A model generated the notes under the pieces. That model did no database searches and was not told the origin of the DNA. It saw nothing but the letters and a program-made list of their open reading frames with translations. From a virus, in the IMG/VR virus record IMGVR_UViG_3300020411_000003: 64,000 nt of DNA; one strand, given 5' to 3'. The stretch's first letter is position 1; every line of letters starts with the position of its first letter. This document shows positions 5,900-30,827 of the stretch, one piece after another. The position numbers were made by a program, and so were the translations under genes.

Positions 5900-6724
5900 A
5901 TGAAAATTCTTACTGGATTTAATGGATTTATTGGAAAGAAGTTTGCCGATAAGCTTGGAAGAGACTATATCGGAATTGAACAGAAGAATTGTTTTCAGTT
6001 AATTGATAGTTTACCTATCTGGGATAAGGTCACAGAGATCATCCACATGGGAGCAATCTCCTCGACAACTGAAAACAACATCGCAGACCTCACAGTATAT
6101 AACGTAGAGTTCACTCTTCGTCTGTTCAACAAAGCAATTGAATATGGTATCCCTGTCAAGTATGCTTCCTCCGCATCAGTATATGGAAACCAACCAGGTG
6201 AGATGAATCCATTAAACTTCTATGCAATTTCAAAATTGCAAGTTGATTACTGGGTTTATGACAATATTGAAAAATTTAAAAACATTCAAGGGTTTAGATT
6301 CTTTAATGTATATGGAGAAGGTGAAGAGCATAAAGGAAACCAACGTAGTCCTATTAGCAAATTTGTCTCCGAAGCAAAGATGTCAAAGAAAATTAAAATC
6401 TTCAAGAATTCTGAGAAGATGGTGAGAGACTTTATCTACGTAGATGATGTAGTGGATCTTGTTCTAAACAACAAGGGAGGATCAGGAATGTATGATGTTG
6501 GTACAGGACACCCACACTCCTTTAGAGATATTGCTGAAATTGTTTCAAAGAAATATGGTGCAAAGATAGAAGAGATTGATTTCCCAGAACATTTACAAGG
6601 AAAGTATCAATACTATACCTGTGCAGATATGAACTGGGTAGATGGTTATGAGTTTACTAATGTAGAGGAATATATCAATCGCCCCGAACCACCCGATACG
6701 AGTCTTCTTCAAAGTGCTCGGTAG
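5900..6724 (+). CDS. hldD: ADP-L-glycero-D-manno-heptose 6-epimerase-like extended SDR
   Basis: Contains TGFNGFIG (GxxGxxG), HMGAISSTT, YASSASVYG, YAISK (YxxxK), FRFFNVYG and RDFIYVDD, and sits next to HldE-like genes. Confidence 0.8.
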   Translation: MKILTGFNGFIGKKFADKLGRDYIGIEQKNCFQLIDSLPIWDKVTEIIHMGAISSTTENNIADLTVYNVEFTLRLFNKAIEYGIPVKYASSASVYGNQPGEMNPLNFYAISKLQVDYWVYDNIEKFKNIQGFRFFNVYGEGEEHKGNQRSPISKFVSEAKMSKKIKIFKNSEKMVRDFIYVDDVVDLVLNNKGGSGMYDVGTGHPHSFRDIAEIVSKKYGAKIEEIDFPEHLQGKYQYYTCADMNWVDGYEFTNVEEYINRPEPPDTSLLQSAR

Positions 6725-15319: not shown

Positions 15320-16222
15320 TTAGTTTTCGTCGTACTTGTAATTGATACGGATCATACCAGAAGTACCATTTTGACCGTAGCAGCATCCACCACCACAAGT
15401 CCATCCAGAAGGACCACCAACACCAGGAACAAAGTTGTGATCAGAGAATGATCCACCCCATCCTAATTGTGCAGTTGACCAATGAAGTAAGCAATAACCA
15501 CATCCACTGTTTTCACATTGGATACCAGTCATCCATCCACCCTTACCGTTAACTAATCCAGCAGGATAAGGAACATGTTGCTTATTATAGCAATGCTGAT
15601 TATAACAGAAGAGATAAGCAGCACCAGGAACACCATATGCTCCACCGTCTGCACCGTGATAAGTTGCACAGCAACCACCAGGACAACTACTTAAACACAT
15701 ACTATTCCATGTGCAGCAGCATTGGAAGCAGCAAGAGCATCCTCCTCCACCACCTCTAGCACAGAAGTTACTTAAGTTTGGTCCAGTAATGTAGGTTGAG
15801 TTACCTTGATTACCACACTGACTACCAGTTCTACCGCAACCAGGAGTACCAACGCAAAGATCGTAAACGCAATTTGCTAATACGTTCTTATCACATTGAA
15901 TACGTTTCCAAGCATATGCACCAGCACCAGCAGGAATACCACGTGAGCAGCAGCATGAAGAACCACCGCCTCCACCAGCACCCCAGATCTCAAAGATAAC
16001 ATCACAAACCCCAGTTGGAACACACCATTGAGGATATCTATAGTAGTTGTAATTTGTAGAAAATTCACTACATGTAGATCCACAAGCACCAACAAAGTAC
16101 TGAACACAATAACCTTCAGAAGGTAATTTTGCTAGTTTTGTTGTAGCGTCAGGAGCAGAAAGTCCTTCTAACGAATCTGACGTGACGAATCCTAATAGAT
16201 CTCGTAAATTAGTGTTTGGCAT
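15320..16222 (-). CDS. Cys/Gly-rich protein, paralogue 3 (glycine-rich fibre-tip-like domain)
   Basis: 300 aa with about 32 Cys; NLRDLL N-terminus, WCVP..FEIWGAGGGGG.SCCC, PYPAGL and CGGGCCYG...G.IRI.Y. Confidence 0.8.
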   Translation of the reverse strand: MPNTNLRDLLGFVTSDSLEGLSAPDATTKLAKLPSEGYCVQYFVGACGSTCSEFSTNYNYYRYPQWCVPTGVCDVIFEIWGAGGGGGSSCCCSRGIPAGAGAYAWKRIQCDKNVLANCVYDLCVGTPGCGRTGSQCGNQGNSTYITGPNLSNFCARGGGGGCSCCFQCCCTWNSMCLSSCPGGCCATYHGADGGAYGVPGAAYLFCYNQHCYNKQHVPYPAGLVNGKGGWMTGIQCENSGCGYCLLHWSTAQLGWGGSFSDHNFVPGVGGPSGWTCGGGCCYGQNGTSGMIRINYKYDEN

Positions 16223-16246
16223 TCTTAAGTTCCTCTATCCTCTTAT

Positions 16247-17185
16247 TTAGTTAAAGTAGTACCAAGCGCAGTCTTCATTCGAAGTTTCTGACTTTAACCA
16301 GCAGGAGCAGTAAGTGATTCTAATTAGACCACCGCCTCCACGCCATCCGTAACAGCATCCACCGCCACAAGCAGTAGCAGAAGGTGAACCAACACCAGGA
16401 AGACCTGGACCACCGTTACAGTTAATGTTGTATGCCCAAGGAGTTGTACCTGTGCAATACATGTATTCATGGATGCATGCATTACCCTGATAGTTCTGAG
16501 TAATATGTCCACCCAAGTTGTTAATCAAACCAGCAGGATAAGGCATCATACCTTTAGCCCAACAGTTATTACCATCACAAGCATTGTACATAAATCCAGG
16601 TTTACCCTTGATCATGCAATCTCCACCGTAGGAACATGCACCATCACTATGGAGGTTCCATCCACCACATCCACCCCAAGAAACTTTATCTTGGCATCTA
16701 TATGTTGAGTTCCAGAATGCCCAGCAGCATGTCTTACCAGGAAGTCCACCATCAGCACAGAGGTTACTTAAGTTGCAACCACCAACCCATGTCTTACATC
16801 CTCTAATACCACAGCAGCATCTAGAGCAACAAGTTGTTGATGCAACGCAAAGTTGATAACACCAACCACCTCGTATTTGGGGATACTCTAAAGTCTTACG
16901 TACATATCCACCAGCACCACCAGGAATACCCTGTTGACAGCAGCAAGCACCACCGCCTGAACCGCCACCACCCCACAACTCGAAGGTTGCTTGAGTAGTT
17001 CCACAAGGAACGCACCAATATTGAATACAATAGTTTCTGTAACTATTGTCACAGTTACCTTGTGTACAATAAGGGTGGAATAAGAACACCCTACCTTCGT
17101 GATTCCTTTCTAACGCAGTATTTTCTGCTACGGTTTGATCGATTGTTGAGGCAAACTCTCTGCCTAATAGTTCTCGTAAATTCAT
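16247..17185 (-). CDS. Cys/Gly-rich protein, paralogue 2
   Basis: 312 aa with about 35 Cys; NLRELL, WCVP..FELWGGGGSGGGACCC, PYPAGL and CGGGCCYG. Confidence 0.8.
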   Translation of the reverse strand: MNLRELLGREFASTIDQTVAENTALERNHEGRVFLFHPYCTQGNCDNSYRNYCIQYWCVPCGTTQATFELWGGGGSGGGACCCQQGIPGGAGGYVRKTLEYPQIRGGWCYQLCVASTTCCSRCCCGIRGCKTWVGGCNLSNLCADGGLPGKTCCWAFWNSTYRCQDKVSWGGCGGWNLHSDGACSYGGDCMIKGKPGFMYNACDGNNCWAKGMMPYPAGLINNLGGHITQNYQGNACIHEYMYCTGTTPWAYNINCNGGPGLPGVGSPSATACGGGCCYGWRGGGGLIRITYCSCWLKSETSNEDCAWYYFN

Positions 17186-17204
17186 TGTACTCTTATATCT
17201 CCTA

Positions 17205-18131
17205 TTAGGTCTTGCAGAATAATGTTACTCTCACGAGACCGTGAGCACCCTCAGAGGAGCAGCAGCAACCGCCACCAAACACCTGAGCAGATGTACCACC
17301 AGAACCAGGAACACCGTTTCTCCAACAGTCTCCTGATAGTCCACCATTGTTACCACTCATCCATAATGTTTGTCTTCTACCACAAGATGCCATATCAGGT
17401 TTTCTTGCAGCATTAACAACACCATAACGAGCACCAAACATAGGAGGGTTAGGATGATAATCCTTCTTCATGCACCAGTTACCGCAACCAGGGTTGCAAT
17501 CATAATGAATGTATGGTGAAAGACCGTTCCAATACCACTTACCAGCTCTCTCACATGATTCCATGCAATCGCTGCTCTTAAGGTCATAATGCTCATACTG
17601 TCCTCTACAGCAAGCAGGACCACATTGATGTATCCTTGTCCTACAAGCGAAGTATGAATCAACCCAGTGACAACAGTTCCAACCGTGACAACCACCACAA
17701 GCACAGAAGTCACTTAATCCAGGACCACTAATGTATGACTTACATCCGTCAAAACCACCTCTAGATGGGTGACGACATGTACCACCTGCTACACAGATGT
17801 CATAACAGCATCCATCTAATTGGGAGACTCCTTGTACTTGAGCACAAACTGTACATGATTGATACTGTCCAGAGAACCCGTTCCAAGCAATTGAACAACA
17901 ACATGTACCAGAGCCTCCTCCTCCACCGCCCCAGAGTTCGAACTTAACTTTACAAATGCAGCAGTTTGGAACGCACCATCTTATACGCTGCCAGTCATAG
18001 TTGTAAGAACTTCCGAACTCCCAACAGTGGTTGCCTCTGTAATATAATTGATGTTGCCCACCACCCATATAAGTCTGAATAGGGACTATATTGGCATCAG
18101 GTACATCTAATAAATCTCGTAAACTTGACAT
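17205..18131 (-). CDS. Cys/Gly-rich protein, paralogue 1
   Basis: 308 aa with about 35 Cys; SLRDLL, WCVP..FELWGGGGGGSGTCCC and FGGGCCC...GLVRVT. Confidence 0.8.
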   Translation of the reverse strand: MSSLRDLLDVPDANIVPIQTYMGGGQHQLYYRGNHCWEFGSSYNYDWQRIRWCVPNCCICKVKFELWGGGGGGSGTCCCSIAWNGFSGQYQSCTVCAQVQGVSQLDGCCYDICVAGGTCRHPSRGGFDGCKSYISGPGLSDFCACGGCHGWNCCHWVDSYFACRTRIHQCGPACCRGQYEHYDLKSSDCMESCERAGKWYWNGLSPYIHYDCNPGCGNWCMKKDYHPNPPMFGARYGVVNAARKPDMASCGRRQTLWMSGNNGGLSGDCWRNGVPGSGGTSAQVFGGGCCCSSEGAHGLVRVTLFCKT

Positions 18132-22994: not shown

Positions 22995-23399
22995 TTACTT
23001 AGGTCCCTCGGTTGTATAATCGTAAGTTTCATTAAAACGAACAGTAAAATATCCGTTATCATCTATAAAGTAGGTTACTTTTCTACTGTCAAATCTGTAT
23101 TGTTGATATTGATCTTGTGGATGATTCACATATGATTTAGATTCTGTAGTTTCTTCTACGTAATCTGTCATTCCAGTTGCAATATCTAGGTACGGAGTAC
23201 CGTCTTTACGATGGAAAGTTACTACATCGTCATCAATACTTCTGATTTTAGTGTAGTTAAGCATGCCATCAGCATCTCTGCTTAAAGCATGTATGGTGAA
23301 ATCGTTTCCAAGATCATAGTTGTTGCTGGCAAAACCGCCACCACCACCGCCAGTGCTAGTGCCACCGCCTCTAAAACTATCGCTAATGTACATTGTCAT
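22995..23399 (-). CDS. Hypothetical virion-associated protein
   Basis: Start moved to the ATG at 23399, which overlaps the upstream stop (ATGA); N-terminal Gly tract. Confidence 0.7.
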   Translation of the reverse strand: MTMYISDSFRGGGTSTGGGGGGFASNNYDLGNDFTIHALSRDADGMLNYTKIRSIDDDVVTFHRKDGTPYLDIATGMTDYVEETTESKSYVNHPQDQYQQYRFDSRKVTYFIDDNGYFTVRFNETYDYTTEGPK

Positions 23400-23857
23400 G
23401 TGACAATAACCCTCCAGTAAACTCCTTCCCAAATAAGTTGAACACCTGCGCCTTTAACGTCAAATACCAGTGGCGATGAAATTACACCAAACGTATTTTG
23501 AAATTGTCGTCCGATAGGGTCCGTCAGAGTAACATTATTTATATCCCAACTAAACTTTACATCAATAAACTCAATTACGTCTCCAGACTTAGGGACTAAT
23601 TGATTATTGTAAAGTGGAAGTGTTAACGAGAGAGGACCGTTAGATGAATCAACGAGATAACGAAGGCTTGTTCCTAGAGTTTGATTAGAATTAATATATT
23701 CCCATCGTGCTCTAAAAACGTCAAATCCACCAGTGGTGGTTCCGTCATGAATGACGGCCATATTTTTATCAGTATCAATCGTCAGTTCACCTTGCGCACC
23801 AGTAAAAAGTGCATGTTCAGCTGTAGTACCTCTTCGGAATTGAACCTGAGTTGTCAT
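23396..23857 (-). CDS. Protein with a major tropism determinant N-terminal-like domain
   Basis: MTTQVQFRRGTTAEH..FTGA.GELTIDTDK..AVIHDG.T.GG resembles Mtd_N; a fibre-associated domain follows. Confidence 0.75.
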   Translation of the reverse strand: MTTQVQFRRGTTAEHALFTGAQGELTIDTDKNMAVIHDGTTTGGFDVFRARWEYINSNQTLGTSLRYLVDSSNGPLSLTLPLYNNQLVPKSGDVIEFIDVKFSWDINNVTLTDPIGRQFQNTFGVISSPLVFDVKGAGVQLIWEGVYWRVIVT

Positions 23858-23891
23858 CAGTGATTATTCGATACCAAGTATATTTATGAGA

Positions 23892-23899
23892 TATTTATA
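23892..23899 (-). promoter_or_regulatory. T4-type late promoter TATAAATA (with a CATAAATA variant at 23881-23888)
   Basis: Exact match immediately after the stop at 23900. Confidence 0.75.
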
Positions 23900-26800
23900 T
23901 TAGATGATCCAACCATAAGATCTTGGTGGTGCAACTTGTATGCGTCTTGTGTCAGCATCACCAACGTGTAGAATAATTCCACCTTCGGATACAAATCTCT
24001 GATAAGGTGCAATAACTGTAGTTGAAACGTCAATCTCAATTGGGCAGTGTCCGTCGTAACTGAAGACACGGAGGACTTCTGCACTTGAGAGAGAAGGTAT
24101 GTTGCCTGAACCAACAAATGCCTTGACAATAAGAGGAACATTGTCCTCTTCGAAGACATCGATTCTTCCTGTACCCTCTTCGATTCTTGTGATACTGGAA
24201 GCAGATTCTCCATAAATTTGTGCGGAACCTTCTCCAACATATCCTTTCCTTGTGAAGGATTCTGCACCTGATCCTCTGACCTCGACAGTAACATCTGTAA
24301 GAATGTTTCTTGTAACTGCCTGTCTTGCAACACCCAAGAAGTCGAAGATTGCAACATTCTCGACTGCAATTGCTCTGGATTCGGATGCATTGTTCCATGT
24401 GAAGAATGATCCAGTTCCAACTGTGACTCTTGTTCTTGGAGTATCCGCAGCACCAAATACATGTACAACTCCATAGAGTTCTGGAGAGAATGTAATTGTT
24501 TCTGCTGCACCAGAGAAGTTGTATAGATTTCCAAATCCTGAGTATGCTTCTGTATGTTTCTCGTCTGCAACACCAGAAATAGTAAGATTGACTTGAGAAG
24601 TCCAGTCAAATGTGCGACGTTCAATACTAGTGACGAAGTTGAATAGATTTCCGAATCCAACTTCTGCGTATGTTGTTGCTTCCTCTGCACGACCCTTGAA
24701 TGTAAAGAGTCCTGTTGCTTCTGGTACAACTCCAACACTTTCCGAAGCACCAGAGAATGCAAAGAGTGTACCAAATACAATCTCTCTTCTGACAACAACC
24801 TGACTTGAAACACCACCAATAGAGAATAGTGCGGTAGTCTCGTCTGGGTTGACAGTGAAACTCTCTGAAGCACCACTGATGTTGAAGATACGTCCTTCTC
24901 CAACAAAGTCCTTTGCAATACGTTCGGATGTATCGACATCGACGTAGATAGTACCAGAACCAATATTGTTTGGTGTAAATCTCTCGAATGCCTCTCCAGT
25001 AATATCGAGTGGTACTGGTACTTCGTCTGGACTCCATACAACATTTTCTGTTGCCCTTGTGCCACCAATAGAGAATAGTAACTGTCTCTCTTCTGGATTG
25101 AAGGTAACACTTTCGGATGCACCACTGATATTGAAGATGCGTCCTTCTCCAATAAAGATTTTGGTACGAGAGAATGTTGAAGTAACATCGATTGTTGTAG
25201 TACCAGAACCAATCCAGTTTGGAATGTACTTGACACTTGCTGTACCACGTACTTTGGATTCGATGGTGAATCTTTCGCTGAAGGTTTGTTTGAATGAACC
25301 AAACCCTTTGAACACCATGTCTGCCTGGAATTCTGGCAGAACGAATGTAACAGACTCTGATGCACCACTGATACTGAAGATTCGACCTTCGCCAACCCAA
25401 ACCTTCGTCTTGGATGAAGTACCAGCACCATAGATATCGACTTCGATTCTTGGTTGCTCTGCAAATGTGAGGATTGGTTCTGTAACTTCTCCAAAGATTT
25501 GAAGATTTGCTTGACCAATCTCTCTGTATGTGGCACTGATACCTGCTTTCTCTGGACGGAATGCAATATCTGCTTGGAATGCAGGTATCTTGATTGTAAT
25601 AGCTTCGTCTGCTGCTCCAATAGAGAACAGTCCACCTTCTCCAAAGTGAATATCGACGTTGACAACAATCGCATCTCCACTGAGATAGATGTCTCCAAGT
25701 GGTTGTTCTGCGAATGTAAGTAGTGGATCCGCAATCTCTCCAAAGACTGTGAACGAACCAAATCCAATATTGCCACCAAAGGTGAAGCTCTGAGTGACAG
25801 CACCCTTGAGAACTGCGTCTGCTGTAAACTCTGGAAGTTTGAGAGTAAAGGATTCTGCTGCACCACCAACAGAGAAGACCTGACCATCTCCTGTGTAAGC
25901 GTGTGTCCTGAGAATATCTGCTTGACCGTATACTTCTGTACGACCAAATGGTTGCTCTGCGAATGTAAGTATTGCAGGACTTGCTGTTCCACGTACTTCT
26001 GTGTGAACCAGACCAGCAATAGCAATTGCACGACTCTCGTCGAGACGACCTGTAAAGTCGAATAGTGCTCCAAGTTCGAGTGGGTTGAATGTAACCGCTT
26101 CGACTGCACCACTGAAGTTGAAGATTCGACCTTCGCCAGTCCAATGCTTCGTAATAAGTGGTACGACAGAAACGTTGAATATCTCTGTATGAGATTGACC
26201 AACCCAATCGTCTGTCTGTCTTTCGATTGCAGTACCAGAAAGATCGATATCGACAGTAAACTGTTCTGAAGCAGTAAACTTCTGACTTGCAAGTCCACCA
26301 AATGTAAGATCTGCTTGGAATGCAGGTATGTCGATTGTAATCGCTTCTGCACTCTGACCAATAGTGAATAGGTTTCCAGATCCATGGAAGTGGAGACTGA
26401 AACTTTCGGCCGCAGTACCAGAAACATCTGTAACAACGAATCTGAATACGTCTGATACAACTGCCTCTTGACAAGTACCAGATAGTTCCATATGAGCAGA
26501 ACCAACTTCTGCTGTGATGAACTTGAGATCTGTGTAACCACCAGCAAACTTGAATAATGGTGGTGTTGTTGGAGGAATAACAACAGTACATTCTGCTGCA
26601 CCACTCCAAGTCCAAAGTGTTGGATCGTTGGTAACCCACTGAGGTGGTACACGAACTTCTCCTTCGGCACGAATCTTGATCGCATGATCCCATTCGGTAG
26701 CATCCGATATAAAGATCTTGGTCTGAGAATCGTGTGCAAGAGAAGTAAAGCTGACAAGTTTTCCAAATGGGTATTCGGAAACTTTTGTACGGATGGAACT

Positions 26801-29353
26801 GATGACAGAAGTAAATCCGTAATCCTCTCTTACCGTTGCACCAGGATCTGTAATCGATCCACAATCGTGGATTGTTGTTGCTCCACCTGAGAGCCAAGGA
26901 TCGATTTCGTATGTCTGACCAAGAGGTATGGTTGCAACAACACCATTGAGACCAATTCTGATAATAGAAGTTGGTGATGTACCAGAGATATTCTGACTTG
27001 GTGTGATCTCGGTAATAGTACCGACACCAGGTAGACTTGCATAATCTCTGTACTCGTATAGATTCGTGGAAGAATCGTTGTAAGAGTAAGTTCTTCTCTT
27101 CTCTGTACTGATAAGAGTAGGTAGAACACCTGTACCTTCGTAAGCAAAGGATCTAAGTACAGGTTCTGCCGTTCCATCAGAAGCCCAAAGAGTACCAAAG
27201 GCATTCCAGTTAGGTGCGAATCTAACGTCAGCAACACCTCTAATTGGGAATAGAGCCTGTTTCTCATCTGGATTGAAGGATACAGATTCAACTGCTCCAC
27301 CAATCTTGTAAATCTGACCTTCACCAACGTAGTCAAATACACGTGAAGCTTCAGCATATACAATACTAAAGGCACGACCTTCACCGATGTATGGTCTAGT
27401 AACACTATAGGTTGCCTCACCAGTAACATCAATTGGAATAAATCCATTCCACTGTGGGTTGATACGTACCCAAGTCTCGGAACGAATCTTGATCGCTGCA
27501 TCGAATGTAATCTCTGCAACAAATCCTTTGGTTTGTGATGTATGTGTATTGCCAGTATAAAGGAATCCACCAAAAGGATACTGCCATACTGTCTGAGAAA
27601 TATATCCCCAATCAATATTTCCAGAGTAACCTTCAGCAACACTACCGTAATCAAAGGTAGAACCTGGTGTGTAATTAGATACAAGAGATACAGTGTATTC
27701 TGGATCTACTACCGCAACAACACCAACGTTGATTCTGACAACGGATCCTGTAGATGTACCTGAGAGGATCGTATTTGTAGTGATCTCCTCGATAGTAGCA
27801 GTTCCTGGTAACGGACCGAAGTCTGTATAACCAAATGGAACGATAGAACTATCGTTGTAATCCCATGTAACTCTCTCGTGGTATGCATCTCCAGTAAATA
27901 CAGGAATGACACCAAATGGTTGCTCACCAAATGTTCTCTTGACATTAGTGACTTCACCTGTGACAGGTATAGTACCAGAACCTCTCCAGTTAGGTACAAA
28001 GTTAACCTTGACGTTAGATTGTAGTGGAGCAATACCACCAGTACCAACGTAATCTGTGGTAACTCTCTCTTCACCACCACCAATTTTGTATAGGTTACCA
28101 GTACCCTCATAAGAGAATACAAATGCCTCGTCTGCTCTGGAGAAGTTGAACAGTACACCAGATCCAATTTCATTAGCAGTGATTCTCTCTGTGAGAACAC
28201 CACGAACCATACTCCTGACGAATCCATTCCATCTAGGTTTGGTTCTTCCTCTACCTTCACCCTGTACCTTGATTTCACCACGACCAATCCAATTAGGTAC
28301 GTAGTTTTGTTTAGCAGTACCCTTAAGTTGACCGATACCGTATGGGAACAGAGTACCAGTGATACTAAGATAACCCCAGTCAAGGTTGGTTGTCTTACCA
28401 ACAGATACTGGAGCATGTTCAATCGCAGTGGTATATGTACCAGAATGCGGTGCAACCTTAAATCCACCTGGATCTACAGTTGCAGTTATTGTAGGATTAA
28501 CTTGTACAACAGAACCAGTACTTATACCTGACAGTACTTGGTTTGTAGTAATGATTTGATAGGACTGTATCGGAATCGTTCCGTAGTCCTCATATTCGAA
28601 TGGAACAACAGCAGAACTATTATATGCGTATGTTCTTCTGTTATCTTCGCTATTAATATTAGGTAGAGTACCTGAACCCTCAAATCCAAATGTACGCTTA
28701 ACTTCTGAGACTTCTCCAGATATCTGGGCTGTACCTGATCCCACCCAGTTAGGTCTAAAGGAAACCCCTGCGTTACTTCTGAATCTGAATAGTCCTTTGG
28801 ACTCAATAGCAATACTTCTAGTAACTGTACCAGAACCAATCTTGTACAGTTCACCTTCACCAACTTCATTCTTCGCAAAAGATTCAGTAGTGAGGGACTG
28901 GATCCCAAACAGTCCAAAGACTTCGATGTCTGGAACCCAGTGTGTAACCGCACTGCCTGTAACTCGTACTGTACCAGTAACGATCCAAGGAGCCACCAGA
29001 CGATAGTAGGTGTCTCCCATTTCGAAGACAGTACCAGAACCAACCCATGCATGTAGTACTGTCCACTGTGTCGCAGTTTTCGGTCTGATAGTACCGAACG
29101 GACGGACAATATCCGTGTAAATTATTCTACCCCAATCATCAACTTCTACAGCTTCTACATCGTTGATAGATCCACCGTCAATAACGGTAGTGGGTGTTAA
29201 TGCTAATGAATTTAAACCGTAATCAAGTTCTATAAACGGTTCAATGCATGAAGGATCCCATGTATATGATGCTCTCTCACCACTAAAAATACGCAGCGCA
29301 AAACTAGACCCATAAGGTCCACCTATACCAGTTGTATAGACATGCGTTGCCAT
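23900..29353 (-). CDS. Large repetitive virion structural protein (1817 aa)
   Basis: Many degenerate repeats such as F.GEGRIFNISGASES.TF.P and TFAEQP; higher GC than the neighbouring genes. Its 3' half is essentially free of off-frame stops (see findings). Confidence 0.85.
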   Translation of the reverse strand: MATHVYTTGIGGPYGSSFALRIFSGERASYTWDPSCIEPFIELDYGLNSLALTPTTVIDGGSINDVEAVEVDDWGRIIYTDIVRPFGTIRPKTATQWTVLHAWVGSGTVFEMGDTYYRLVAPWIVTGTVRVTGSAVTHWVPDIEVFGLFGIQSLTTESFAKNEVGEGELYKIGSGTVTRSIAIESKGLFRFRSNAGVSFRPNWVGSGTAQISGEVSEVKRTFGFEGSGTLPNINSEDNRRTYAYNSSAVVPFEYEDYGTIPIQSYQIITTNQVLSGISTGSVVQVNPTITATVDPGGFKVAPHSGTYTTAIEHAPVSVGKTTNLDWGYLSITGTLFPYGIGQLKGTAKQNYVPNWIGRGEIKVQGEGRGRTKPRWNGFVRSMVRGVLTERITANEIGSGVLFNFSRADEAFVFSYEGTGNLYKIGGGEERVTTDYVGTGGIAPLQSNVKVNFVPNWRGSGTIPVTGEVTNVKRTFGEQPFGVIPVFTGDAYHERVTWDYNDSSIVPFGYTDFGPLPGTATIEEITTNTILSGTSTGSVVRINVGVVAVVDPEYTVSLVSNYTPGSTFDYGSVAEGYSGNIDWGYISQTVWQYPFGGFLYTGNTHTSQTKGFVAEITFDAAIKIRSETWVRINPQWNGFIPIDVTGEATYSVTRPYIGEGRAFSIVYAEASRVFDYVGEGQIYKIGGAVESVSFNPDEKQALFPIRGVADVRFAPNWNAFGTLWASDGTAEPVLRSFAYEGTGVLPTLISTEKRRTYSYNDSSTNLYEYRDYASLPGVGTITEITPSQNISGTSPTSIIRIGLNGVVATIPLGQTYEIDPWLSGGATTIHDCGSITDPGATVREDYGFTSVISSIRTKVSEYPFGKLVSFTSLAHDSQTKIFISDATEWDHAIKIRAEGEVRVPPQWVTNDPTLWTWSGAAECTVVIPPTTPPLFKFAGGYTDLKFITAEVGSAHMELSGTCQEAVVSDVFRFVVTDVSGTAAESFSLHFHGSGNLFTIGQSAEAITIDIPAFQADLTFGGLASQKFTASEQFTVDIDLSGTAIERQTDDWVGQSHTEIFNVSVVPLITKHWTGEGRIFNFSGAVEAVTFNPLELGALFDFTGRLDESRAIAIAGLVHTEVRGTASPAILTFAEQPFGRTEVYGQADILRTHAYTGDGQVFSVGGAAESFTLKLPEFTADAVLKGAVTQSFTFGGNIGFGSFTVFGEIADPLLTFAEQPLGDIYLSGDAIVVNVDIHFGEGGLFSIGAADEAITIKIPAFQADIAFRPEKAGISATYREIGQANLQIFGEVTEPILTFAEQPRIEVDIYGAGTSSKTKVWVGEGRIFSISGASESVTFVLPEFQADMVFKGFGSFKQTFSERFTIESKVRGTASVKYIPNWIGSGTTTIDVTSTFSRTKIFIGEGRIFNISGASESVTFNPEERQLLFSIGGTRATENVVWSPDEVPVPLDITGEAFERFTPNNIGSGTIYVDVDTSERIAKDFVGEGRIFNISGASESFTVNPDETTALFSIGGVSSQVVVRREIVFGTLFAFSGASESVGVVPEATGLFTFKGRAEEATTYAEVGFGNLFNFVTSIERRTFDWTSQVNLTISGVADEKHTEAYSGFGNLYNFSGAAETITFSPELYGVVHVFGAADTPRTRVTVGTGSFFTWNNASESRAIAVENVAIFDFLGVARQAVTRNILTDVTVEVRGSGAESFTRKGYVGEGSAQIYGESASSITRIEEGTGRIDVFEEDNVPLIVKAFVGSGNIPSLSSAEVLRVFSYDGHCPIEIDVSTTVIAPYQRFVSEGGIILHVGDADTRRIQVAPPRSYGWII

Positions 29354-29374
29354 TAATTCAAATACCCTCCACTA

Positions 29375-29407
29375 AAATAAAAAAGGGGATCCAGTAATGA
29401 ATCCCCT
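29375..29407 (-). terminator. Intrinsic terminator
   Basis: On -: GGGGAUUC-AUUACU-GGAUCCCC followed by UUUUUUAUUUU. Confidence 0.8.
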
Positions 29408-29438
29408 CACACATAATAATGAATTCAATTCGAACCAA

Positions 29439-30827
29439 TCAGTCGAGGCTGACGTTCAAGGTTACTTTAATTTGGTCACCTGCGTTCTGAATAGCGTAAG
29501 GACCATTCGTGAATCTCTCAGCGAAGAATATCGCATCATAGAGCGTCACAGAACCTGTACCATCAAGTGCTTTAGTAGTTGTGAAGGTATTTGCATCAGG
29601 TACTTCAAATACAATGTAAGTACCAGCAGTAGTTGTGGTATTACCTGTTCCCTGATCGATATAAACTGCATCGCCAGGAACTAATCCATGACCTGTAGCA
29701 GTTACTTTACTAAAGTCAAACTTAACAACATCATTACCGTTAGAAGTCTGAATGTTTTCAATCAGAACGTTATTGAGGTAAACAGTAACTGTTCCGTCTG
29801 CGTCATCAGTCTCATAATCGATACCAGTAATGACTGTGTTGGCATCAATACCATTAGGTGTAGTTGTTTGAGAAACTCTCATTCCAAGAGCAAGGTCTTC
29901 AGCGACATTTGCTTGGAATACTAAGTCACCACTAACAGCACCACCGTTTGCTTTGCTTAGATAAACTGTAGTACCAACGATTCCAGTAACACGTGCTCCC
30001 TGAGCAACGTTAGTTCCTGTAACACGCTGATCAACAGCAACACCAGTTGTAGATGTAACAACAACTTCGAACTCACCAGCAGTACCAGTAGCAGCAGTAG
30101 TAGCAGCAACAGCAGCAAGAGTAATGTAGTTGTTACCGATAGTTCCTCTTACACCAGACTTAGAAATCTGTGTTCCAGTAGCAGCAGTACCAGCATCAGC
30201 CACACCGTGAATGGTTGTAGGCATGTTGTTAGCACGTGAGAGGAAATAACCGTATACGTTACCAGCAGGACCATCAAAGGTAAATGTTTGCTCAGGATAA
30301 GAAGCAGTTGTTCTACCTCTACCAAAACTCAATGGTTGTGCAGTGAAGTTACCAGTGTTCTTAACACTTAAGTTAAGTGTAGTACCATCAATGTCTACAA
30401 CGTATGCACCAGTGCCGACAGAACCACCAGTAACATAGTCACCTTTTTTAATACCTGTGTTAGAAGCAACCGTAACTAGGTATGTACCAGATGTACCATC
30501 ACCATTAGTTGTAGTGACCGCAGTAGGCTCAGTTTCGATGCCCCAACGGTTACCGTTTAAAAGGATACCATACTGCTGTGCATAATCCTGATCAGTTCTA
30601 TTATTGATGATGCCAGGATAACCTGTAGTAGGTGCTCCACCATAACCGTTAGTGTTATTTTCGGTGTATGGTTCGAAATATCTTGTTTGAGAGGGAGTAT
30701 CACTCTCAGCAGGATATGTATCTGTTGTAAACAGCTTCAGAATAAGGTTTCTGGGAATGTTTTGAGAATAATTCAGCAGATTCCTTAAAGAATCAATTTC
30801 GCCGTTGTCGGTTACTAAGAGTGCCAT
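29439..30827 (-). CDS. Virion structural protein (462 aa)
   Basis: T/G/V-rich with an internal repeat (V.STTG...G..VTG..V..GA.V..I.GTT..LS..N.G); preceded by tandem late promoters. Confidence 0.8.
   Translation of the reverse strand: MALLVTDNGEIDSLRNLLNYSQNIPRNLILKLFTTDTYPAESDTPSQTRYFEPYTENNTNGYGGAPTTGYPGIINNRTDQDYAQQYGILLNGNRWGIETEPTAVTTTNGDGTSGTYLVTVASNTGIKKGDYVTGGSVGTGAYVVDIDGTTLNLSVKNTGNFTAQPLSFGRGRTTASYPEQTFTFDGPAGNVYGYFLSRANNMPTTIHGVADAGTAATGTQISKSGVRGTIGNNYITLAAVAATTAATGTAGEFEVVVTSTTGVAVDQRVTGTNVAQGARVTGIVGTTVYLSKANGGAVSGDLVFQANVAEDLALGMRVSQTTTPNGIDANTVITGIDYETDDADGTVTVYLNNVLIENIQTSNGNDVVKFDFSKVTATGHGLVPGDAVYIDQGTGNTTTTAGTYIVFEVPDANTFTTTKALDGTGSVTLYDAIFFAERFTNGPYAIQNAGDQIKVTLNVSLD

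What the first reader, a model, noticed from the sequence alone, without database searches (positions are those of the whole stretch)
24039..27152. Stop codons purged from all three coding-strand frames over kilobases of a structural gene
Seen: scanning every line, 24630-26829 (2200 bp) has no TAA, TAG or TGA on the minus strand in any frame. The wider 24039-27152 span (3114 bp) has only four: three clustered at 24606-24629 in the -1 frame and one at 26830 in the +1 frame. This produces the 960-aa (+1) and 756-aa (-1) same-strand shadow ORFs. A rough base-composition estimate predicts several tens of off-frame stops in the 2200 bp. The same gene has 11 in just 27153-27353, and other genes here are full of them. 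Avoidance is context-specific: the 3' half writes Gly-Glu as GGA/GGC GAA while the 5' half uses GGT GAA, and TTA/CTA appear only before pyrimidines (CAG TTA CTA TTC, 25073-25084). TGG, TAC and TAT are common off-frame and the plus strand has many stops, so the constraint is strand- and stop-specific. The alternative-frame translations look compositionally odd (L/S/Q-rich; R/C/W/S-rich) and I saw no obvious slippery heptamer. Inference: selection acts on translation or RNA. Options are programmed frame-switching giving alternative long C-termini, true triple coding, frameshift-tolerant repeat shuffling, or evasion of a factor that recognises stop triplets regardless of frame. This is the opposite of the usual ambush-stop enrichment.
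Basis: partly seen in the sequence, partly recalled or inferred. Interest (0 to 1): 0.92.

Follow-up and report, generated by a model that had tools for sequence, protein, structure and literature searches.

The report
Frameshift-proofed cyanophage tail gene
A giant tail-region gene of marine cyanophages has removed both the sequences that make ribosomes slip and the out-of-frame stop codons that would end a slipped ribosome early, the reverse of the textbook 'ambush' rule, most likely because a cleanly shortened copy of this protein is more harmful than one with a long nonsense tail.

Summary
Confirmed. The stretch lies in a 1817-aa gene (23900-29353, minus strand) in the tail region of a T4-like cyanophage related to S-CAM1/S-CAM3. 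It holds 4 off-frame stops where synonymous shuffles give about 106. The purge is family-wide (47 lineages): +1 frame O/E 0.08, -1 frame 0.51 and tracking GC3, neighbouring genes 1.0. It is ongoing, and unique among 49 S-CAM1 genes tested. The extra frames do not look like genes: no amino-acid constraint, 39 of 63 long -1 runs lack any start codon, and isolated stops persist. The gene also purges ribosomal slip junctions, in phase (UUU_Y, U_UUC, U_UUU, A_AAG, C_CCU: about 0.2 of neighbours, matching the E. coli hierarchy). Surviving -1 slip sites avoid having a -1 stop within 30-40 codons ahead. A cost that fades over about 35 codons fits both frames. Best reading (0.6): error-proofing in which short-tailed frameshift products poison assembly. 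The poisoning step is inferred, not shown.

The parts
23900..29353 (-). Main gene, 1817 aa, phrog_11522 (unknown function); orthologue of S-CAM1 gene 99 and S-CAM3 gene 94. The 5' part has ~250-290-aa units with acidic DYG/DWG loops; the 3' part has ~41/83-aa Gly-rich repeats.
24630..26829 (-). Core with no stop triplet in any of the three sense frames
   Evidence: 76 expected
24627..27152 (-). -1 frame open run, 841 codons; shadow peptide rich in R/S/Y/C/W, net charge +112; no sequence constraint
23884..26829 (-). +1 frame open run, 981 codons; L/S/Q/V-rich; ends just past the main stop
24606..24629 (-). -1 stop island (codons 1575-1582); 1-4 stops in every close relative, individual stops turn over
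24036..24605 (-). Second -1 open run, 189 codons
26830..26832 (-). Single +1 stop (codon 841) in the last DYG loop segment; present in all close relatives that cover it
26830..29121 (-). Three further +1 open runs in the 5' half (291, 254 and 199 codons), about one per repeat unit
26399..26404 (-). Residual -1 slip junction U_UUC; next -1 stop 591 codons ahead. The only other two in the 3' half are at 24916 (A_AAG, 95 ahead) and 24862 (U_UUC, 77 ahead).
29373..29408 (-). GC hairpin plus U tract (intrinsic-terminator-like) just before the start codon; present in all 18 lineages examined; no TAAATA late-promoter motif between it and the ATG
23881..23897 (-). Two TAAATA late-promoter-like motifs serving the next gene; the +1 run ends inside one
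23396..23857 (-). Downstream neighbour, Mtd_N-domain tail protein (PF18454, phrog_9648)
29439..30827 (-). Upstream neighbour, 462 aa (phrog_10467), same position in relatives; ordinary off-frame stops (20/17 and 57/54)

Best explanation
The gene is error-proofed against accidental ribosomal frameshifting in two ways. (1) Prevention: codon junctions at which a tRNA can re-pair one base away are purged. (2) Mitigation, opposite to ambush: off-frame stops are purged so that a ribosome which slips anyway adds at least ~35 junk residues before release. The extra frames encode nothing useful. Selection per isolated stop is moderate (log-odds about 4 for +1 and 6-8 for -1). That keeps the sparse +1 frame open almost everywhere, but keeps the stop-dense -1 frame open only in GC3-richer lineages and in stretches where the protein offers few chances for a stop. 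SHOWN from sequence: both purges, their phase specificity, their interaction and the length scale. INFERRED: a cleanly truncated, untagged N-terminal fragment of this long repeat protein joins and spoils a low-copy virion structure, whereas a chain with a long junk tail is degraded or excluded. That the protein is in the virion is itself inferred from gene neighbourhood.
For: Stops: O/E against neighbour codon usage in 47 lineages has medians 1.02/0.98 (neighbours) and 0.08/0.51 (last 1000 codons); -1 O/E vs GC3 rho -0.81. Ongoing: in 9 close relatives, new -1 stops at 0 of 185 one-step sites against 27 of 57 in the 5' half. Slip junctions in the last 800 codons: TTT|C 0/43, T|TTC 0.13, TT|TC 0.52; A|AAG 0.17, AA|AG 0.83, AAA|G 1.06. 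The four most purged of 16 Z_ZZN tetramers (0.19-0.29 of neighbours) are four of the five top-ranked in E. coli (A_AAG, U_UUC, U_UUU, C_CCU; PMC4066793); Spearman -0.66, p=0.005. In S-CAM1 this gene is the extreme outlier of 49 for stops (0.35; next 0.74) and for slip motifs (0.09; next 0.23). Interaction: -1 slip sites with a -1 stop under 30 codons ahead number 52 vs 90 expected within lineages (z -5.9; 33 of 43 lineages), 35 vs 54 in 28 lineages under 60% identity; the effect is weak for stops behind (z -1.9, -0.7) and fades beyond 40-60 codons. A tail-length cost fits L=27-37 codons in both frames separately. All-or-none ORF controls give 70-80 (-1) and 43-54 (+1); must-reach-anchor simulations give 81-136. 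With uniform harm and no anchors, simulation predicts where the -1 frame is open (rho positive in 14 of 14 lineages, mean 0.44).
Against: No direct evidence of frameshift products, their fate or their toxicity. The -1 run ends within a few codons of one motif, 67 codons before the main stop, in most of 28 lineages, more sharply than some simulations give; that could mark a real endpoint. The A_AAG part of the interaction is inflated by stop avoidance itself (control A_AAY also falls, ratio 0.85), so the U_UUY part (43 vs 67) carries the test. The interaction is absent in the 5' half (z -0.7). The slip hierarchy comes from E. coli, not Synechococcus. The simulation uses protein sequences that may themselves have adapted. 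Lineages are related, so p-values are optimistic. Rare +1 stops are not enriched in -1-closed zones (22 vs 22.5). In-frame near-stop codons are not clearly avoided.
Confidence: 0.6

Rival explanations
1. Useful transframe or overprinted products: one or both extra frames make polypeptides whose function needs length or bulk but not sequence (ruler, stuffer, polycation), entered at signals I did not find.
For: Open runs of 500-1260 codons are kept at 26-50% main-protein identity. Run 3' ends are stable: a stop within 30 codons in 95% of pair comparisons, and the single -1 stop of the S-CAM1 clade is replaced 8 codons away in L065/L069. Synonymous divergence is about 30% lower in the open region of close relatives.
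Against: No excess of synonymous or conservative change in either frame. Composition is unselected apart from stops. 39 of 63 long -1 runs have no ATG/GTG/TTG. No conserved slippery heptamer or run, and entry motifs are purged. The -1 frame is closed in AT-rich lineages, and isolated +1 stops persist. Gap lengths are graded rather than all-or-none.
Confidence: 0.17
2. Translation itself is the function, as proposed for ambigrammatic narnaviruses: off-frame ribosomes must keep moving to cover the mRNA, avoid collisions or preserve downstream expression.
For: Openness without protein conservation is the narnavirus pattern (PMC8316113). The gene sits behind a terminator-like hairpin and is probably sparsely translated. 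Its mRNA folds more stably than synonymous shuffles.
Against: The next gene has its own late-promoter motifs, and the +1 run ends anywhere from 25 codons before to 61 nt after the main stop. Off-frame ribosomes should be rare because entry is suppressed. Folding excess is similar in other tail genes.
Confidence: 0.1
3. Slipped ribosomes must reach fixed sites (a re-phasing shift, a coupled restart or an encoded degron), giving 3'-anchored catchments.
For: Sawtooth -1 profile, with sharp 3' ends and 5' edges that vary between lineages.
Against: No conserved shifty-stop context, restart codon, C-terminal peptide or synonymous-site conservation at run ends. Anchor simulations give length scales of 81-136 against 33 observed. 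The anchor-free model already places the islands roughly correctly.
Confidence: 0.08
4. DNA-level frameshift tolerance: indels or out-of-register repeat recombination swap segments between frames.
For: The gene is a repeat array, 1450-2700 aa in marine members.
Against: No shifted-frame translation matches any of about 220 main-frame relatives at E<0.01. Close relatives are colinear.
Confidence: 0.03
5. Evasion of a factor that recognises stop triplets regardless of frame.
For: All three triplets are absent over 2.2 kb.
Against: The two frames behave differently at the same positions: after the -67 site TAA, TAG and TGA are plentiful in -1 but absent in +1.
Confidence: 0.02

Closest known systems
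Ambush / hidden-stop selection (PMC2996987; bioRxiv 10.1101/2025.10.02.679949)
   Same: Synonymous codons are shaped by the fate of accidentally frameshifted ribosomes, and shifty motifs are under-represented.
   Different: The sign is reversed. Those papers report excess off-frame stops and shorter products at slip-prone sites; here stops are removed and slip sites avoid a nearby stop. The effect is 10-30-fold and confined to one gene family.
Avoidance of -1 frameshift motifs in bacterial genes (PMC4066793)
   Same: The same tetramers in the same phase: A_AAG, U_UUC, U_UUU, C_CCU.
   Different: About fourfold stronger here than in neighbouring phage genes, and coupled to stop removal.
Ambigrammatic narnaviruses (PMC8316113)
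   Same: A kilobase frame kept open with no conserved protein.
   Different: Antisense strand, one frame, RNA virus, and the reverse ORF is translated and required. Here two sense frames in a DNA phage, graded, with no start codon in most -1 runs.
Programmed frameshifts in phage tail genes, lambda gpG/gpGT (PMC5009743)
   Same: Tail region; alternative-frame C-terminus.
   Different: Those have one conserved slippery site and a conserved transframe domain. Neither is present here.
Overprinted same-strand genes (phiX174 B/K/E, lambda Rz1, MS2 L; from my own knowledge)
   Same: Long ORF nested in another frame.
   Different: Those have a start or a coupling site, and usually suppress synonymous change; neither was found here.

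Membership tests
phrog_11522 / S-CAM1 gene 99 family (Kyanoviridae-like) | Full-length homology and conserved synteny | tested here: met
   E 1e-268; 30% identity over 96% to S-CAM1; same neighbours
Virion fibre / structural protein | Present in purified virions | not testable with these tools
   Only neighbourhood: between baseplate wedge, tail fibre and (in relatives) gp13 genes
Virion fibre / structural protein | Known fibre fold or oligomer | tested here: inconclusive
   AlphaFold2 monomers pLDDT 29 and 34; no meaningful PDB or Pfam hit; complex prediction unavailable
Overlapping (overprinted) gene | Alternative ORF longer than chance and conserved | tested here: met
Overlapping (overprinted) gene | Purifying selection on the alternative protein | tested here: not met
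Overlapping (overprinted) gene | Conserved start codon | tested here: not met
   39 of 63 -1 runs have none; no conserved +1 start seen
Overlapping (overprinted) gene | Product detected | not testable with these tools
   no proteomics or ribosome profiling found
Programmed ribosomal frameshift | Conserved slippery site at the head of the open frame | tested here: not met
Ambush selection | Off-frame stops enriched, especially after slip-prone sites | tested here: not met
   opposite sign
Ambigrammatic genome | Open frame on the antisense strand | tested here: not met
   plus strand has 23-31 stops per 500 nt here

The most novel reading that the evidence does not exclude
The first natural 'anti-ambush' gene: kilobases of synonymous sites tuned so that slipped ribosomes never release a short-tailed product. 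It would show that a junk tail of about 35 residues works as a quality-control mark, and that frameshift errors select at measurable strength in wild phage populations. A less likely but more striking version is that all three sense frames are deliberately translated over 2-3 kb into length-only products.
Probability: 0.65. Interest if true: 0.9.

Novelty: categorically new. Interest (0 to 1): 0.82.

Why it matters
Whether off-frame stops are under selection at all has been argued from genome-wide excesses. This gene family gives a 10-30-fold, frame-resolved signal in the opposite direction, with a fitted length scale, in a cultured phage (S-CAM1 on Synechococcus WH7803), so single silent changes can test it. 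It also shows that a long conserved alternative ORF is not by itself proof of an overlapping gene. The same pair of signatures (slip-motif purge plus stop purge) could be used to find other proteins whose truncated forms are poisonous.

Tried and rejected
No whole genome was held for the window; S-CAM1 served as the genome-wide control. PDB, Pfam and ESM Atlas gave nothing informative. The -1 translation had no hit among proteins of similar length. RNA and DNA contigs laid on an S-CAM1-like copy were shallow and patchy and showed no indels or joints; this neither supports nor excludes transcriptional slippage. I first read the -1 sawtooth as proof of fixed anchors. The up/down asymmetry fit turned out to have no power to tell the models apart; only the length scale does. 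Considered and dropped: selection against off-frame start codons (O/E near 1); protamine-like selection for Arg; coupling of the +1 run to the next gene (variable ends); an assembly artefact (seen in 101 loci and in cultured isolates); TA-dinucleotide or homopolymer avoidance alone (TAT/TAC enriched; CTT|T 0.95 and AAA|G 1.09). Ten literature searches found no description of this pattern or gene; the library lacks most subscription journals.

Full report
Observation. The minus strand has no TAA, TAG or TGA in 24630-26829 and four in 24039-27152. Shuffling the region's own synonymous codons gives 76 off-frame stops in the core (never fewer than 9 and 44 per frame in 2000 shuffles) and 106 in the wider span. 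The depletion is stop-specific: TGG is enriched in the -1 frame and TAT and TAC in the +1 frame. The other window genes tested sit at O/E near 1.

What the gene is. The stretch is the 3' part of a 1817-aa gene, phrog_11522, among baseplate and tail-fibre genes of a T4-like cyanophage. Cultured relatives are S-CAM1 gene 99 and S-CAM3 gene 94, at 25-30% identity with the same neighbours. A profile search finds 407 clusters at 50% identity. The protein is a Gly-rich repeat array with no meaningful PDB or Pfam match and no confident monomer model. A terminator-like hairpin precedes its start in all 18 lineages examined, and the next gene has its own late-promoter motifs. I infer a low-copy virion protein; that is not shown.

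The purge is family-wide, graded and current. Across 101 loci the +1 frame is open over the last 800-1100 codons almost everywhere, and the -1 frame is open in one or two long runs. Against the codon usage of neighbouring genes in 47 lineages, median O/E is 1.02 and 0.98 in neighbours, 0.64 and 0.81 in the 5' part, and 0.08 and 0.51 in the last 1000 codons. The -1 value tracks GC3 (rho -0.81). In nine close relatives no new -1 stop arose at 185 one-step sites, against 27 new ones at 57 such sites in the 5' half. In the complete S-CAM1 genome the two longest three-frame open stretches (1684 and 1473 nt) are in this gene, and it is the outlier among 49 genes. Distant homologues, such as the 2200-3800-aa proteins of L178-L183, show the signal weakly or not at all.

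The extra frames do not behave as genes. In 17 genome pairs, substitutions are no more synonymous or conservative in the open frames than in closed regions. Third-base choice in contexts with no stop risk is nearly the same in open and closed regions. Divergence does not drop near run ends. Of 63 long -1 runs, 39 contain no ATG, GTG or TTG, including both S-CAM1 runs. There is no conserved heptamer or homopolymer. No shifted-frame segment occurs in any relative's main protein.

The gene also avoids slipping. In the last 800 codons TTT followed by a pyrimidine is absent (0 of 256 expected), T|TTC is at 0.13 and A|AAG at 0.17. The same letters in phases that do not allow tRNA re-pairing are at 0.52, 0.83 and 1.06. 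Of the 16 Z_ZZN tetramers, the four most purged relative to neighbours are A_AAG, U_UUC, U_UUU and C_CCU. These head the measured E. coli hierarchy, in which C_CCC ties with C_CCU (PMC4066793); C_CCC is rare here and not strongly purged. Phase dependence points to the ribosome rather than RNA polymerase. A gene that profited from its other frames would be expected to keep entry sites; this one removes them more than any other gene tested in the window or in S-CAM1.

The two purges interact. In the 3' part, surviving -1 slip sites are rarer when a -1 stop lies under 30 codons ahead (52 vs 90 expected within lineages; 35 vs 54 in a set under 60% identity). The effect is much weaker for stops behind and fades beyond 40-60 codons. 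The A_AAG share is partly a by-product of stop avoidance; the U_UUY share (43 vs 67) has flat controls. Published bacterial data show the reverse, shorter products at slip-prone sites (bioRxiv 10.1101/2025.10.02.679949; PMC2996987).

A length scale. A model in which each slip costs less the longer its tail fits L = 27-37 codons in both frames separately. All-or-none ORF controls give 70-80 and 43-54, and must-reach-anchor simulations give 81-136. With uniform harm and no anchors, the model predicts where the -1 frame is open in 14 of 14 lineages (mean rho 0.44), because open stretches form where the protein offers few stop opportunities. The fitted strength per isolated stop, log-odds 3-4 for +1 and 6-8 for -1, is what a small error cost would give, not an essential second gene. 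Caveats: lineages are related, the protein sequences may have adapted too, and the very sharp -1 end 67 codons before the main stop in most of 28 lineages is only partly reproduced.

Mechanism. Shown: prevention, stop removal, their interaction, and a scale of about 35 codons. Inferred: a slip followed by a near stop releases a clean, untagged fragment that enters and spoils a virion structure, while a longer junk tail gets the chain degraded or excluded. From my own knowledge, 30-40 residues is about the length of the ribosomal exit tunnel, and tmRNA tags stalled chains but not chains released at a stop. An accessible 10-20-residue stretch is cited for mitochondrial AAA+ proteases (PMC5095350). 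None of this was tested for the phage. I put the reading at 0.6, useful length-only transframe products at 0.17, translation-as-function at 0.10 and fixed anchors at 0.08.

Novelty. The nearest known things are ambush selection (opposite sign), motif avoidance in E. coli (weaker, not coupled to stop loss), ambigrammatic narnaviruses (antisense, translated and required) and programmed tail frameshifts. It fails the defining tests for each. Ten searches of the open literature found no description. Two earlier notes of this scan reported the same family on other genomes and also found no encoded protein; they are not independent support. I reached the family-level result before reading them and took the narnavirus comparison from one.

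Noticed in passing
window 29373-29408 (-): Terminator-like GC hairpin plus U tract 5-30 nt before the start codon in all 18 lineages examined; the gene may be expressed only by read-through.
   Followed up: partly
window, codon 45 of the main gene (about 29215-29221, -): A T_TTA_AAY heptamer occurs within the first ~20-250 codons in about a dozen lineages, where the -1 frame closes quickly; possibly only Gly/Phe-Leu-Asn coding.
   Followed up: no
window 15320-18131 (-): Three tandem paralogues of phrog_4205 (300-312 aa, unknown function); the one at 15320 also has few slip motifs (1 of 8.4 expected).
   Followed up: no
window 5900-6724 (+): The longest plus-strand ORF (274 aa) in an otherwise minus-strand region; S-CAM1 has a lone reversed ADP-heptose epimerase gene at the equivalent place. 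Identity not checked.
   Followed up: no
L165 (about 665-570 codons before the main stop): In this AT-rich lineage a block has several +1 stops while the -1 frame is open, the reverse of the usual pattern; possibly a recombined segment.
   Followed up: no
L090 (last 80 codons of the gene): The -1 frame has a stop 80 codons before the end and is then open to the end, unlike the 27 related lineages examined.
   Followed up: partly
L178-L183: Homologous repeat proteins of 2200-3800 aa, three next to gp13 with the same upstream gene trio; slip and stop depletion weak (absent in L181, GC 0.52, different context).
   Followed up: partly
window 28886-29124 (-): A further three-frame stop-free gap of about 235 nt near the 5' end of the same gene; close relatives have -1 stops there, so it is not conserved.
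   Followed up: yes
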